From Pecten maximus (taxonomy: Eukaryota): a DNA stretch of 64,000 nt. Below, one piece after another: positions 42,601 to 45,600 of this stretch. The position numbers were made by a program. The first letter of the stretch is position 1; each line of letters opens with the position of its first letter. The DNA lies in assembly GCF_902652985.1 (NCBI RefSeq), contig NC_047030.1:13082001-13146000 (forward strand), given 5' to 3'.

Positions 42601-45600
42601 AAGAGGCCTGGTAGGCCTATATCGGTTATCAACAGGTTGTGGAACCACTGAAAATGCATATAAACACATTTGGTAGCTATTCATCTCAACGTGCTAATGA
42701 CCTTATAACGTGGGGCCTCCGAGTTATCGGGAAGCCGATGGAAGATTTTAACATTTGAACAAAAACAAAACAAACAAAAAACCAAAACAAATAAACTAAC
42801 AAAAATAAGTAAATAAATAACGATGAAAAATGAATAGATATAAATAATGAATCAAACGAAAAAAAATGAAAAAAAGGTGAATATAAAAAATAGGAAAATA
42901 ACATAATGAATAAAATAAGTAGCTTGAAGAAATGTTTAATTATATATAACAGGGGATGTGCAATATCCCTTTAATTCAACGAAACTTAATAAAATGTTGT
43001 ACTTTTATTGCAGTACCACATAACCTGGTCAGTGCCTATGATTATGGTTATGATTATCATGAGGACAATGATATATACAGCTTTGATCCTGGATTTGACC
43101 CTGACTTAGACCCTGGATTTGAAACAGCTCAATCTGACGCCACCATTGGAATGGAGACGGTGGCAAATGATGGCCGCAGACGAAAACCAGGAGCTGGACG
43201 AGGCAAAAAAACCAGCGTTAGATTCACAGGAATTGGGCCTGTGGTGACATCTGAACATTCTTTAGAAGGGACAATGGAAACTCTGTCGTTGGTAAATACA
43301 AGACATGGAAACAGCGTAACGACTGAGACCTGGGGTGTAACAAGCATGCCCACAACAGCGACTTTAATGTTCCGACCCACGGACATACTTGATGTTATTA
43401 GCACAGCCCCGTATGCAGATTCAACGAAAAGCGTGAATTTCAATGTATGGGAAGTACTTACATCCAATTACCAGACGACAGCGATATCATCTGATTTATT
43501 GTCACGTGATTATTTCAGTGTCATTCAATCCAATATACATCCCACGAAAACACTGGTTTCCTCCTTGGGAGAATTTCGAGCCGGAGATTATGGCATTGAG
43601 AGTGGAACTGATATTGTTGCGGCAACAGCACAAATCATATCAAATCTCGAGATAATACGCGGACAAGGAACGAGTGGTTACCAAACACCAGGTGAATTTG
43701 ATTTCCATATTCACAGTTCGATAGACGAAGTTGAGTTGTATGACTTTGATTCAGTGAGTGTGGGGGACATTTATTATGACTATGTAACAACAGACTGGGT
43801 AGGAAATTCCGGACATGCAACAATGGATGGGTTTGGTTCAAATGATTATGTCACAATGAATGTTTTGGGTTCATTCGACTACGGGTCTTTATATGGCTTT
43901 GGCACTAACGCAATTGTAACAAAGAGTGGATTTGGCTCAATCGATTATGCAACACTTCACGGATTTGGCACTGATGAATATATCACGATGGGTGAATTTG
44001 ATTCATATGATTATGGCACAATAAGCGGCTTAGGTTCAAACAGCTTTGGAACATTGGAAGAATTTGACGCTTACGAGCATACAATGATGAGTGGATACGG
44101 TTTGCACGACTTTTGGACTTCCGAATCTTTTGGCGCTTATGAAAAACCAACAAGGAGTGGAATTGAGCTTTACGATAATGGGACATTTGGAGTATTAGGC
44201 AGTGATGAATATGCAACAAATGATGGATTCAATTCTTATGGCATGAGTGAGGGAGCCGAGTGGTATGATTATGCTACGGTTGATGATTTACGCAATAATG
44301 AACATGCAAGCAAGAGTGGATTTGATTTGTATGACTATGGAACAGTAAGTGGGTTTGGCGATAATAGACACACAACAAAGGGTGCGTTCGATTCGTATGA
44401 CTATGGAACAGCAGGTGGGTTTGGCAATATGGGACACGCAACAAAGGTTCCGTTCGATGTATATGACTATGGAACAGCAGGTGGGTTTGGCAATAATAGA
44501 CACGCAACAAAGGGTGCGTTCGATTCGTATGACTATGGAACAGCAGGTGGATTTGGCAAAAATAGACACGCAACAAAGGGTGCGTTCGATTCGTATGACT
44601 ATGGAACAGCAGGTGGGTTTGGCAATATGGGACACGCAACAAAGGTTCCGTTCGATTCGTATGACTATGGAACAGCAGGTGGGTTTGGCAATAATAGACA
44701 CGCAACAAAGGGTGCGTTCGATTCGTATAACTATGGAACAAGGGATGGGTTTGGCAATAATAGACACGCAACAAAGGGTGCGTTCGATTCGTATAACTAT
44801 GGAACAAGGGATGGGTTTGGCAATGATGGACACGCAACGAAGGGTCCATATAGTGATTATGGCACCTTTGGAGGCATCGACAATAGCAAACATAGAACAA
44901 AAGATGAAATTGATCTGTACGACTATGATACATTAGATAGGACAATAGGTTTTCGACAGTTGTCAGAGGGAAAGCCAAATCTACATCCAACGGCATCCCG
45001 CTTATCGGGTGCAAACTACAGGATGTCAAAAAGTGTTGACCCCACTTATAACACTGACGATTCTGACGAATACAACAAGAAGAATGGTGGTGAACAATTC
45101 TTTGAAGGAAGCACTGGGTGCCCCTCCATGATACCAGACGCACATACACAAACACTTTCCTTAGCGCTATGTGTGTTTTTCTCTTGTAAACTCAGTCACT
45201 AAGAACTGTTTAGAAATATATCAAAAAGAAGACAATTTCAATTACAATGGAAAATGACAATGAAGAATAATAGATTTGGAGCATATTTCAAACATCTTTT
45301 CCCAAACGATTGAAAGAGCCAGTATGTTTTTTATGCGTAAATTCGGTAAAATGATATCGTCATAACATTATTATTAATGATTATTTTGTTTTATTCATAA
45401 TATGTAAATATAGAAGCGGATATGCTAATAAGGAAAGCCAATATATCCAATATTCCAGGCCATAATTATATTCCTTTGTCAGGACGTAATGAATAATTCG
45501 TAATTGAAAGGGACGTTAATTTAAAATAAACTCAAATTATTGTGGTTTTTTTTTCAGTACGATGCAAAAATTAAGAAATATCAATGTCGATGCTCTTTTA

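What the first reader, a model, noticed from the sequence alone, without database searches (positions are those of the whole stretch)
43790..44935. Gene C 11/22-aa Gly-Tyr-Asp-His repeat domain with an age gradient
Seen: near-perfect 66-bp repeats (~44315-44845) encode GAFDSYDYGTA+GGFGNNRHATK, alternating acidic-aromatic and basic-His half units. Upstream the same 11-aa period continues in strongly diverged form (GFGSNDYVTMN, GFGTDEYITMG, EFDSYDYGTIS). An RRRK basic site and a (D/P)PGFD triplet lie near the N-terminus. Known: Gly/Tyr-rich and Asp-rich low-complexity proteins occur in mollusc shell matrix and byssus, where Tyr can become DOPA and His binds metals. Inference: a charge-alternating beta-solenoid or coacervating structural protein, unusual in appearing GPI-anchored.
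Basis: partly seen in the sequence, partly recalled or inferred. Interest (0 to 1): 0.65.

Follow-up and report, generated by a model that had tools for sequence, protein, structure and literature searches.

The report
Unannotated scallop 22-residue repeat protein gene
This is an intact but unannotated king-scallop gene for an acidic, glycine- and tyrosine-rich protein built from about nineteen 22-residue repeats, with no relatives found anywhere; it is a typical fast-evolving mollusc repeat protein, and its function is untested.

Summary
A 66-bp array (44292-44845, 8.4 copies, 0% indels) lies inside a 750-codon open frame (42950-45202, + strand). The same 22-aa period, with an 11-aa sub-period, runs upstream in diverged form to about 43690.

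A neighbouring exon is 99% identical to a Pecten maximus transporter, so the window is king scallop.

The old units are under purifying selection: pN/pS is 0.62, against 1.04-1.06 in the other frames. They keep an exact 22-residue length, with one 6-nt indel. The young 3' block arose by recent duplications, including a 198-bp three-unit copy. Only there is the second half-unit basic.

No Pfam, PDB, Atlas or sequence relative exists. All 12 weak hits are unrelated repeat proteins. The protein is also absent from the library that holds P. maximus RefSeq proteins.

AlphaFold gives regular strands at low confidence (pLDDT 49), so a beta-solenoid is neither shown nor excluded.

The only hydrophobic stretches are at the two termini. 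That fits a signal peptide plus GPI signal, but neither was verified.

Best reading: a lineage-restricted extracellular repeat protein of the mollusc low-complexity-domain kind. Expression and function are untested.

The parts
42882..42888 (+). TATAAAA motif 68 nt upstream of the in-frame ATG. A possible core promoter element if the gene is unspliced here.
   Evidence: Pattern scan. A consensus match only, in an A/T-rich stretch.
42956..43036 (+). Candidate start codon plus a signal-peptide-like 27 residues (MCNIPLIQRNLIKCCTFIAVPHNLVSA). It has a hydrophobic core and V-S-A before the first Tyr.
   Evidence: In-frame ATG. The 11-residue Kyte-Doolittle mean of 1.85 is one of only two hydrophobic peaks in the protein. 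No signal-peptide predictor was available.
43012..43013 (+). Alternative gene model: a 3' splice acceptor AG after ttgtacttttattgcag. The exon would then start at 43014 in phase 1, with an unidentified upstream exon.
   Evidence: It is the only AG between 42900 and 43100 preceded by at least 11 of 16 pyrimidines; sequence read.
43016..45199 (+). Coding sequence of the large exon (728 codons, P0001). The stop TAA is at 45200-45202.
   Evidence: There are 0 stops in this frame, against 15-46 in each of the other five frames over 43016-44314. G is enriched at codon position 1 (0.34).
43037..43123 (+). Acidic Tyr/Asp-rich mature N-terminus: YDYGYDY, which echoes the repeat motif, followed by FDPGFDPDLDPGFE.
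   Evidence: Translation. TRF period 12, 3.4 copies, at 43082-43122.
43175..43210 (+). Basic cluster RRRKPGAGRGKK. It could be a dibasic processing site, a polyanion-binding patch, or an NLS under the intracellular rival reading.
   Evidence: Regex on the translation found RRRK at aa 54 and KK at aa 64. The function is inferred only.
43124..43687 (+). Non-repetitive Thr/Ser-rich region (aa 37-224) with no detectable relative and no confident fold.
   Evidence: No lag-22 periodicity (0.059 against 0.065 expected). No hit. pLDDT 25-34.
43688..43792 (+). Most degenerate 5' units (EFDFHIHSS, ELYDFDS, IYYDY), at the edge of the array.
   Evidence: 2 of 22 residues match the young consensus. The motif remnants are visible in the tables.
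43793..44254 (+). Old block: seven 22-aa units (aa 260-413), acidic, with both halves of the type xGFGxx[DE][YF]xTx.
   Evidence: Adjacent-unit DNA identity 0.48-0.61, with no indel. pN/pS is 0.62 in this frame against 1.04 and 1.06 in the other two + frames, and pS is 0.72, which is saturated. The diverged zone aa 225-433, which contains this block, has pI 4.05.
44255..44314 (+). Transitional unit carrying the only indel of the array, a 6-nt / 2-aa deletion (AEWYDYATVDDLRNNEHASK).
   Evidence: Register shift found. There is a single 2-aa gap in the alignment of the old and young blocks.
44315..44842 (+). Young block: eight near-identical 66-bp units, each with an acidic-aromatic half (GAFDSYDYGTA) and a basic-His half (GGFGNNRHATK).
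   Evidence: TRF. Units are 86-97% identical to the consensus. Block pI 6.41, Gly 21.6%, F+Y+W 18.2%. Half-unit charges.
44381..44776 (+). Two copies of a 198-bp, three-unit higher-order repeat (44381-44578 and 44579-44776), which marks recent unequal crossing-over.
   Evidence: The two copies differ at 10 of 198 positions. Units 456 and 522 are identical (0 of 66), and units 478 and 544 differ at 3 of 66. Units 566 and 588 also differ at only 3.
44843..44950 (+). Degenerate 3' edge units (GPYSDYGTFGG, IDNSKHRTK, DEIDLYDYDTLDR).
   Evidence: Identity to the consensus drops to 0.39 and 0.26 in the strict register. The motifs are visible.
45155..45199 (+). C-terminal hydrophobic tail LSLALCVFFSC + KLSH, preceded by small residues (GSTGC) and a polar spacer. 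It is a GPI-signal-like end.
   Evidence: Highest 11-residue hydropathy in the protein (2.4). The maximum 19-residue mean anywhere is 1.09, so there is no membrane-spanning helix. The omega-site reading is my own inspection; no predictor was run.
45525..45530 (+). First AATAAA after the stop codon, 323 nt downstream. A candidate polyadenylation signal.
   Evidence: Pattern scan.

Best explanation
SHOWN. The feature is the large, possibly only, coding exon of an intact gene of the king scallop Pecten maximus. The gene is absent from the protein libraries searched and has no detectable relative. It encodes a hydrophilic, acidic protein of about 730-750 aa. The layout is a Tyr/Asp-rich N-terminus, a basic RRRK...GRGKK patch, a 190-aa Thr/Ser-rich unique region, about nineteen 22-residue units, and a short tail ending in a hydrophobic stretch. 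Each unit is two 11-residue halves of the type G-aromatic-G/D-x-x-x-aromatic-x-T-x-x. The array has two tiers. The old 5' block has saturated synonymous sites, yet its motif positions and exact unit length have been kept by selection. The young 3' block was made by recent in-register unequal crossing-over, including a three-unit 198-bp duplication. In that block the second half-unit changed from acidic-aromatic (D/E-Y/F) to basic (R-H...K).

INFERRED. The protein enters the secretory pathway and ends up outside the cell, either GPI-tethered or released. There it acts as a structural, matrix or surface protein of the mollusc repetitive low-complexity-domain (RLCD) kind. Each length-constrained unit most likely forms a strand-turn-strand module with Gly turns. 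Regularly spaced Phe/Tyr and Thr would then give multivalent self-association. The Asp-rich faces would bind Ca2+, mineral or basic partners. The young polyampholyte block would add self-complementary charge pairing.
For: Real coding frame:
- 750 codons, against a maximum of 192 in 100 simulations.
- 0 stops, against 15-46 in the other frames.
- Third-position differences of 0.64 against 0.45 and 0.42 at positions 1 and 2 among old units.
- pN/pS 0.62 (0.51 for adjacent units), against 1.04 and 1.06 in the shifted frames.

Length constraint:
- One 6-nt indel across 16 units.
- Non-coding arrays in the same window with 70-78% matches carry 7-18% indels.

Position-specific conservation over 17 units: G13 in 16, T21 in 15, T10 and G15 in 13, F3, Y8 and F14 in 12.

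Recent expansion: identical or near-identical units three positions apart.

Taxon: a neighbouring exon is 99% identical to P. maximus MCH1.

Orphan status.

Extracellular layout: the only hydrophobic stretches are at the two termini, and there is no membrane-spanning segment. A neighbouring ORF at 22276-23355 shows the same three-part layout: a signal-peptide-like start, repeats and a hydrophobic end.

Strand pattern: AlphaFold places two strands per unit, at low confidence.

Kind: lineage-restricted RLCD proteins are reported as common in mollusc mantle secretomes (PMC4897951, passages). In Yesso scallop mantle, 70 of 73 secreted tandem-repeat unigenes matched nothing known (PMC4391921, passages).
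Against: - There is no expression evidence of any kind.
- The protein is missing from a library that does contain P. maximus RefSeq proteins. An automated annotation with transcript support therefore apparently did not call it.
- No orthologue appears in the protein sets of other scallops, although the age of the old units suggests the gene predates the species.
- The 5' end is unresolved. A strong acceptor at 43013 competes with the ATG-42956 signal-peptide reading. No convincing upstream exon was found: the best candidate sits inside an inverted-repeat element.
- The signal-peptide core is only about 7-10 residues and contains a Lys.
- The C-terminal hydrophobic run is only 11 residues.
- Structure models are of low confidence (pLDDT 36.1 and 49.1) and match no fold.
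- Young units show pN/pS of about 1.2, so there is no sign of constraint on them.
- Any shell, byssus or ligament role is by analogy only.
Confidence: 0.45

Rival explanations
1. Same gene and location, different physics. The repeats are intrinsically disordered 'sticker and spacer' sequence, with Phe/Tyr/His/Arg as stickers and Gly/Asn/Ser/Thr as spacers. They condense into a coacervate or gel, as squid beak His-rich proteins do, rather than forming ordered strand-turn-strand modules.
For: Composition of the young block: Gly 21.6%, aromatics 18.2%, GRAVY -0.90, pI 6.41. No confident fold. It has a two-domain layout, a unique N-terminus plus a repetitive C-terminus, and DYG-type motifs. These are described for squid HBPs and Nereis Nvjp-1 (PMC9999432, passages). 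RLCD shell proteins are generally described as disordered (PMC4897951, passages).
Against: Exact unit length and individual positions (G13, T21, T10) are kept across units whose synonymous sites are saturated. That is more typical of structured repeats. His is only 8 of 176 residues in the young block, against 10-16 or 27 mol% in the comparison proteins. The old block is strongly polyanionic (pI 4.05), which disfavours simple self-coacervation without counter-ions.
Confidence: 0.2
2. Not a functioning gene. It would be an unexpressed or recently silenced open frame whose minisatellite happens to preserve the frame.
For: It is absent from the protein collections although P. maximus RefSeq proteins are present. 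There is no homologue anywhere. The young units show pN/pS of about 1.2. The window is full of minisatellites. The promoter and first exon are not identified.
Against: There are 435 stop-free codons upstream of the young array in 35.5% GC DNA, against a maximum of 192 in simulations. Purifying selection and length conservation in the old block are specific to this frame. There are no frameshifts. Recent silencing cannot be excluded, but a long non-coding history can.
Confidence: 0.15
3. Terminal exon of a larger multi-exon gene. Upstream exons, inside or outside the window, would carry the signal peptide and perhaps other domains that define the function. The ATG-42956 reading would then be a coincidence.
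For: Strong acceptor context ttgtacttttattgcag at 43013, with a branch-point-like cttaa upstream. It is the only such site within 200 nt. The A-rich sequence upstream looks intronic.
Against: No ORF of 70 or more codons between 24 and 54 kb reached a Pfam cut-off: 0 of 51, with 2 sub-threshold matches. tblastn of the protein against the window finds nothing else. The 20 codons before the acceptor are open, start with ATG, and encode the second most hydrophobic stretch of the protein, followed by V-S-A.
Confidence: 0.1
4. Intracellular low-complexity protein. Translation would start at an internal Met, with no signal peptide. RRRKPGAGRGKK would act as a nuclear localisation signal, and the aromatic-Gly repeats would drive condensates like prion-like domains.
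For: The basic cluster at 43175-43210. GFGN and YG motifs recall, from my own recall and untested, hnRNP/FUS-type low-complexity domains. A possible non-coding first exon could sit near the GC-rich block at 41400-41560.
Against: The frame stays open and motif-bearing (YDYGYDY) upstream of the first internal Met. The two termini are hydrophobic. Strong acidity and Thr/Ser richness fit extracellular mollusc proteins better. There is no RNA-binding or other intracellular domain.
Confidence: 0.07

Closest known systems
Mollusc repetitive low-complexity-domain (RLCD) mantle-secretome / shell-matrix proteins, for example shematrins and KRMPs. This is a class, not one homologous family.
   Same: - Mollusc origin.
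- Lineage restriction with no detectable homologues.
- Tandem units of about 10-20 aa.
- Gly/aromatic/Asp bias and acidic pI.
- Evolution by slippage, unequal crossing-over and motif change, as described in PMC4897951 (passages).
   Different: No evidence of mantle expression or presence in shell. The P. maximus shell proteome paper (PMC5854119; passages and section 15) names no such protein in the text I saw, and its supplements were closed. The possible GPI-type end is not typical: the Yesso scallop screen removed GPI candidates before calling biomineralisation proteins (PMC4391921). Strict 22-residue length conservation across anciently diverged units is more orderly than most RLCDs.
Abductin, the scallop hinge-ligament elastomer
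   Same: A scallop extracellular repeat protein. Two of the eight young units contain GGFGNMG, which resembles the abductin decapeptide [GGFGGMGGGX] quoted in PMC9999432 (passages).
   Different: Abductin is described there as having 58 mol% Gly, being Met-rich, having a 10-residue repeat and a mature form of about 116 aa. Here Gly is 21.6% in the young block. Met occurs in 2 of 8 young units and only as a recent N-to-M change. The period is 22. Asp, Tyr and Thr are prominent, and the protein is about 730 aa. No sequence relationship was retrieved.
Squid beak His-rich proteins (HBPs) and Nereis jaw protein Nvjp-1
   Same: A non-repetitive N-terminal part plus a highly repetitive C-terminal part. 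The repeats are rich in Gly, Tyr, Phe and His. DYG / G-aromatic-G motifs occur. The proposed pH- or metal-triggered assembly serves as a functional analogy (PMC9999432, passages).
   Different: HBP repeats are pentapeptides with 10-16 mol% His, and His is their only charged residue. Nvjp-1 has 27 mol% His. Here His is 24 of 728 overall and 8 of 176 in the young block. The units are 22 aa, and Asp/Glu dominate: 100 acidic against 48 basic residues. No homology was detected.
Strand-turn-strand repeat stacks: curli CsgA / FapC functional amyloids and beta-helical antifreeze or adhesin proteins
   Same: Units of about 20-23 residues (CsgA unit length is my recall), with conserved Gly/Asn at turns and ladders of identical residues. 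The low-confidence AlphaFold model has two strands per 22-residue unit. Such proteins (LpxD-type left-handed helices, FapC, CsgA, a Ca2+-dependent beta-helical antifreeze protein) top the Foldseek list.
   Different: Those Foldseek matches are not significant: best E 0.022, TM 0.09-0.38, and 0 matches at E <= 0.001. The model itself has pLDDT 49.1. There is no sequence similarity. Those proteins are bacterial and this one is metazoan.
P0006, an unnamed 1504-aa protein with 11-residue 'NEGFGQH...' repeats and a Pfam Mucin-like domain
   Same: An 11-residue period with a G-F-G/D core, often with His a few residues later. It was retrieved at E 2.4e-5.
   Different: Only about 20-22% identity, carried by GF[GD] once per unit and obtainable in several registers. 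Nothing matches outside the repeats. Its origin could not be looked up. I treat it as convergent periodic similarity.

Membership tests
Mollusc RLCD secreted / shell-matrix proteins (functional class) | Tandem low-complexity repeats with biased composition | tested here: met
   66-bp array plus diverged units. Gly 13.5%, Thr 9.9%, Asp 9.5%, Tyr 7.1%, overall pI 4.58.
Mollusc RLCD secreted / shell-matrix proteins (functional class) | N-terminal signal peptide (secretion) | tested here: inconclusive
   The ATG-42956 reading gives a signal-peptide-like 27 residues, but a splice acceptor at 43013 offers another model. No predictor was available.
Mollusc RLCD secreted / shell-matrix proteins (functional class) | Expression in mantle, or presence in shell, byssus or ligament proteomes | not testable with these tools
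   No transcriptome or proteome resource was available, and paper supplements were closed. The motif strings occur in no paper in the library.
Mollusc RLCD secreted / shell-matrix proteins (functional class) | Lineage restriction / rapid evolution | tested here: met
   There was no true relative among 1.84 billion representatives. All 12 weak hits were on the repeats only. None was found by word search.
GPI-anchored proteins | C-terminal hydrophobic tail preceded by a polar spacer and small omega-region residues | tested here: inconclusive
   The tail LSLALCVFFSC has a Kyte-Doolittle mean of 2.4 and lies within the last 15 residues. GSTGC lies 12-16 residues upstream. The tail is short (11 residues), the spacer is long, and a Pro follows the best-placed small residues. 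No GPI predictor was run.
GPI-anchored proteins | N-terminal signal peptide and no internal transmembrane helix | tested here: inconclusive
   There is no internal hydrophobic segment: the maximum 19-residue mean is 1.09. The signal peptide depends on the unresolved 5' gene model.
Abductin | Decapeptide [GGFGGMGGGX] repeats, about 58 mol% Gly, Met-rich, small protein | tested here: not met
   Period 22. Gly is 21.6% in the young block. Met occurs in 2 of 8 young units. The protein is about 730 aa. The family definition is taken from PMC9999432.
His-rich structural proteins (squid HBP, Nvjp-1) | His 10-27 mol% in short Gly-His-aromatic repeats | tested here: not met
   His is 24 of 728 residues (3.3%), and 8 of 176 in the young block. 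The family definition is taken from PMC9999432.
Beta-solenoid / cross-beta repeat proteins | A confident model or fold match showing stacked coils | tested here: not met
   Mean pLDDT 36.1 and 49.1, with no residue at 70 or above. Foldseek gave 0 matches at E <= 0.001 and a best TMq of 0.16 for the top hit.
Beta-solenoid / cross-beta repeat proteins | Fixed coil length with conserved turn and ladder positions | tested here: met
   One 2-aa indel in 16 units. G13 is kept in 16 of 17 units, T21 in 15, T10 in 13.
Any Pfam / PDB family | Significant profile or sequence match | tested here: not met
   Pfam gave 0 families at E <= 10. PDB sequences gave 0 at E <= 1. The Atlas gave no usable hit for the whole protein or for aa 36-224.

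The most novel reading that the evidence does not exclude
The 22-residue units are rungs of an ordered repeat stack, a beta-solenoid or cross-beta ribbon with two strands and two Gly turns per unit. A GPI anchor would display this stack on scallop cells. Ladders of Asp, Tyr and Thr would form a flat, lattice-matching face for calcite or another periodic surface. The recently expanded block, whose second strand switched from acidic to basic, would create a self-complementary or pH-switchable extension. That would be a new metazoan solenoid family and a structured, rather than disordered, mollusc matrix protein.
Probability: 0.1. Interest if true: 0.65.

Novelty: new member of a known kind. Interest (0 to 1): 0.35.

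Why it matters
If expressed, this adds an unannotated, taxonomically restricted gene to the scallop extracellular repertoire. It is also a clean example of how such genes evolve. An old, selected repeat scaffold sits next to a recent burst of in-register duplications in which half of each unit changed charge. The strict 22-residue length conservation questions the usual assumption that mollusc repeat proteins are simply disordered, and that is directly testable with a recombinant block. The case also shows that automated annotation can miss long repeat-bearing ORFs, which then never enter the databases used for shell, ligament or byssus proteomics. As it stands the case is ordinary for mollusc genomes, and its function is unproven.

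Tried and rejected
- Homology. All searches found no true relative: Pfam, word-indexed search, exhaustive phmmer, PDB sequences, the Atlas twice, and an exact look-up.
- The 12 weak phmmer hits. I read 9 in full and the matched stretches of the other 3, and scanned all 12 against Pfam. I rejected them as unrelated tandem-repeat proteins.
- A first register for the upstream units gave background identity. I corrected it after finding the 6-nt deletion.
- A nine-row self-alignment of shifted segments slid into identity. It carried no information and I discarded it in favour of the two-row alignment A2.
- AlphaFold on the whole exon and on the young block gave low confidence. A Foldseek search of the second model gave nothing significant.
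- Complex prediction with two copies of the young block returned 'no answer' (score 0.00). It says nothing either way.
- Search for an upstream signal-peptide exon. The top candidate, 38294-38450, lies inside a 143-nt, 99% inverted-repeat element and I set it aside.
- Transposon or dispersed-repeat origin. I rejected this: there is no similarity between 42000-46000 and the rest of the window, no paralogue by tblastn, and no Pfam domain.
- Known RNA. None was found in 40000-48000.
- Antisense coding. Rejected: the minus frames carry 15-25 stops over 43016-44314.
- One 'longer' search on the neighbour exon was poorly chosen and gave only an annelid fusion protein. One paper search failed on term syntax and was not repeated.
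- Not checked. Paper supplements were closed. The P. maximus shell protein lists of PMC5854119 and the 67 tandem-repeat proteins of PMC4391921 could bear on this.
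Full report
**What is there**

The window has no N and is 35.5% G+C. One frame on the + strand is open from 42950 to the TAA at 45200-45202, a run of 750 codons. In 100 first-order Markov simulations of the window, the longest stop-free frame averaged 141 codons and never exceeded 192.

Over 43016-44314, the part upstream of the near-perfect repeats, this frame has 0 stops. The other five frames have 15-46. Inside the near-perfect repeats, three further frames stay open or nearly so (0, 0 and 1 stops). 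That explains the 305-aa and 214-aa antisense ORFs. They are by-products of the repeat.

**The repeat**

Tandem Repeats Finder reports 44292-44845 with period 66, 8.4 copies, 88% matches and 0% indels. The majority unit translates to GAFDSYDYGTA GGFGNNRHATK. Eight in-register units (aa 434-609 of the exon, nt 44315-44842) are 86-97% identical to the consensus.

Upstream, a first strict register gave only background identity. One unit (aa 414-433, nt 44255-44314) has lost two codons. With that correction, seven further units (aa 260-413, nt 43793-44254) line up without any indel. They are 38-64% identical to the young consensus and 48-61% identical to their neighbours. The old and young eight-unit blocks align at 36% amino-acid identity with that single 2-aa gap.

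Autocorrelation of the diverged zone (aa 225-433):

| Lag | Observed | Shuffle mean | Maximum in 2000 shuffles | z |
|---|---|---|---|---|
| 22 | 0.299 | 0.075 | 0.150 | 11.7 |
| 11 | 0.182 | 0.075 | 0.136 | 5.8 |

The N-terminal 224 residues and the last 119 show no such signal. Degenerate motif remnants flank the array on both sides: EFDFHIHSS and IYYDY at 43688-43792, and DEIDLYDYDTLDR at 44843-44950. The mature N-terminus carries YDYGYDY.

There are two corrections. The main period is 22 residues, with 11 as a sub-period. The 'gradient' is really two tiers joined by two transitional units.

**Evidence that the frame is, or recently was, under selection**

- Among the seven old units, pairwise differences by codon position are 0.45, 0.42 and 0.64.
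- Nei-Gojobori pN/pS is 0.62 (21 pairs), or 0.51 for adjacent units concatenated. The same DNA read in the two shifted frames gives 1.04 and 1.06. pS is about 0.72, which is saturated.
- Across 17 units, G13 is kept in 16, T21 in 15, T10 and G15 in 13, and F3, Y8 and F14 in 12.
- Length is conserved too. Non-coding arrays in this window that have 70-78% matches carry 7-18% indels. These much more diverged units carry a single in-frame 6-nt indel.
- The young units show about as many non-synonymous as synonymous changes per site (pN/pS 1.17, few events).

**How the array grew**

- Units starting at aa 456 and 522 are identical (0 of 66 differences).
- Units 478 and 544 differ at 3 positions. 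Units 500 and 566 differ at 7.
- The 198-bp blocks 44381-44578 and 44579-44776 differ at 10 of 198 positions.
- Units 566 and 588 differ at 3.

This pattern is what in-register unequal crossing-over of one-unit and three-unit steps would leave. It is an inference from the pattern.

In the old units both halves have the form xGFGxx[D/E][Y/F]xTx and are neutral or acidic. In 6 of 7 units both halves are zero or negative, and the diverged zone (aa 225-433) has pI 4.05. In the young units the second half reads GGFGNNRHATK. In 6 of 8 units the halves are -2 and +1 to +3, and the block pI is 6.41.

**Organism and context**

The exon at 10236-11285 matches Pfam MFS_1 (E 1.1e-17). It is 99% identical over 100% of its length to 'probable transporter MCH1 [Pecten maximus]', 83% to Mizuhopecten yessoensis and 58% to Argopecten irradians. 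In all, 82 proteins had E <= 0.001. I take the window for king scallop, not human.

- Of 51 further ORFs of 70 or more codons between 24 and 54 kb, none reached a Pfam cut-off. Two had sub-threshold matches.
- The region 42000-46000 has no similarity to the rest of the window at E <= 1e-3.
- tblastn of the protein against the window gave 4 HSPs. Only one lay outside the gene (16 aa, E 2.5).
- No Rfam family lies in 40000-48000.
- About 20 kb upstream, 22276-23355 is another single ORF. It has a signal-peptide-like start, Thr/Ser-rich in-frame repeats and a hydrophobic end.

**Relatives**

| Search | Result |
|---|---|
| Pfam | 0 families at E <= 10 |
| Word-indexed search, 400-1274 aa | 8000 candidates scored, none at E <= 0.001 |
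| phmmer against 1.84 billion representatives | 12 at E <= 0.001, 1 at <= 1e-10, 0 at <= 1e-30 |
| PDB sequences | 0 at E <= 1 |
| Atlas, whole protein and aa 36-224 | no usable hit |
| Exact look-up of the ATG-42956 protein | not in the collection |

Every best stretch in the phmmer hits falls in query residues 243-630. The hits are unrelated tandem-repeat proteins, such as SRDKSKYGLKG, DINKEEQVTLE, GFGTEQDSTLP and NEGFGQH. Only 2 of the 12 have any Pfam family. Their origin could not be looked up.

P. maximus RefSeq proteins are in these libraries. The gene therefore appears to be unannotated there, and it has no annotated orthologue in other scallops. The three motif strings I searched occur in no paper of the library.

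**Gene model**

There are two readings of the 5' end.

- Unspliced. ATG at 42956 (G at -3) gives MCNIPLIQRNLIKCCTFIAVPHNLVSA before YDYGYDY. This contains one of only two hydrophobic peaks of the protein (11-residue mean 1.85) and ends in V-S-A. A TATAAAA lies at 42882.
- Spliced. ttgtacttttattgcag ending at 43013 is the only good acceptor within 200 nt. The sequence upstream is A-rich and looks like an intron. The exon would then start at 43014 in phase 1.

My scan for a phase-compatible signal-peptide exon put 38294-38450 first, with a perfect donor. That candidate lies inside an element bounded by 143-nt, 99% complementary inverted repeats, so I do not trust it.

At the 3' end the stop is followed by AATAAA at 45525. 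The C-terminus, LSLALCVFFSC-KLSH, is the most hydrophobic stretch (mean 2.4). It is preceded by GSTGC and a polar spacer. No 19-residue window exceeds 1.09, so there is no transmembrane helix. Hydrophobic termini on an otherwise hydrophilic, acidic protein fit a signal peptide plus a GPI-attachment signal. Both elements are short, and no predictor was available.

**Structure**

AlphaFold2 on the whole exon without an alignment gave mean pLDDT 36.1 and pTM 0.27. Residues scoring 50-70 were concentrated in the repeats.

The young block, with the old block as its only aligned row, gave mean pLDDT 49.1 and pTM 0.37. 78 of 176 residues scored 50-70 and none scored higher. The model shows a regular pattern of a 9-residue and a 5-residue strand per unit (FDSYDYGTA and NRHAT/MGHAT), with turns at GGFGN and K-G/V-A/P.

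Foldseek against the PDB found 136 matches at E <= 10 but none at E <= 0.001. The top hit had E 0.022 and TMq 0.16. The list is headed by left-handed beta-helices, trimeric adhesins, FapC/CsgA amyloids and a beta-helical antifreeze protein. This is not evidence for a fold. It only shows that the weak model looks locally like stacked strands.

**Interpretation**

Shown:
- an intact, frame-specific, selected ORF in a scallop genome;
- a two-tier 22-residue array;
- recent in-register amplification with a charge switch;
- no relatives.

Inferred:
- secretion, and perhaps GPI anchoring;
- an extracellular structural, matrix or surface role;
- modules of strand-turn-strand form that associate through regularly spaced Phe, Tyr and Thr and bind Ca2+ or mineral through Asp.

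The length constraint favours ordered modules. The composition (Gly 21.6%, GRAVY -0.90 in the young block) and the poor models favour disorder. I put the ordered-module version slightly ahead.

The class is well known:
- Reviews describe lineage-restricted RLCD proteins as a large, fast-evolving part of mollusc mantle secretomes (PMC4897951, abstract and passages).
- The P. maximus shell proteome paper notes many low-complexity domains (PMC5854119, passages and section 15).
- In Yesso scallop mantle, 70 of 73 secreted tandem-repeat unigenes matched nothing known (PMC4391921, passages).

Specific named families fail their defining tests:
- Abductin has a decapeptide repeat, 58 mol% Gly and is Met-rich (PMC9999432).
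- Squid HBPs and Nvjp-1 have 10-27 mol% His in short repeats (PMC9999432).

**Limits**

There are no expression, proteome or comparative-genome data. Supplements of the cited papers were closed. The verdict is a real and neatly structured but ordinary member of a known kind, with an untested function.

Noticed in passing
window 22276-23355 (+): A second single-ORF gene candidate. It has a signal-peptide-like start (MFSVFYIALVPAMTDAS), Thr/Ser/Ala/Pro 'TSATxTTAT' repeats with periods of 105/135/240 bp and 0-1% indels, and a hydrophobic C-end after GSGAS. That is a mucin-like protein with the same three-part layout as the finding. It has no Pfam family, and its exact sequence is not in the protein collection.
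   Followed up: partly
window 10236-11285 (+): Exon of an MFS transporter (Pfam MFS_1; NFD4_C below cut-off). It is 99% identical to Pecten maximus 'probable transporter MCH1', which identifies the genome.
   Followed up: yes
window 37148-37290 and 40695-40837: A pair of 143-nt inverted repeats, 99% complementary and 3404 nt apart, which looks like the ends of a mobile element. ORFs inside it have no Pfam match. The best-scoring 'signal-peptide exon' candidate (38294-38450) lies within it.
   Followed up: partly
window 41400-41560 and 41761-41997: A GC-rich block with CCAAT-like motifs, and an 86-bp x 2.8 tandem repeat (92% matches), lie 1-1.5 kb upstream of the gene. They could be regulatory or could belong to a minus-strand ORF (41181-41435, no Pfam).
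   Followed up: no
window 989-4416, 13994-15522, 24273-25042, 53137-55899, 59575-60282, 60410-63801: Six non-coding satellite or minisatellite arrays with periods of 44, 28, 19, 33, 73 and 8/23/30 bp. Together they cover about 12 kb of the 64-kb window. Several create long spurious ORFs.
   Followed up: partly
window 49731-50426 (+): A 231-codon ORF that looks to me (from recall) like the C-terminal tail of a retrotransposon ORF2-type protein. It has no Pfam family at E <= 0.01.
   Followed up: partly
protein P0006 (library hit, origin unknown): A 1504-aa protein with 11-residue 'NEGFGQH' repeats and a Pfam Mucin-like domain. It shares the period and the GF[GD] core with the finding but nothing else.
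   Followed up: partly
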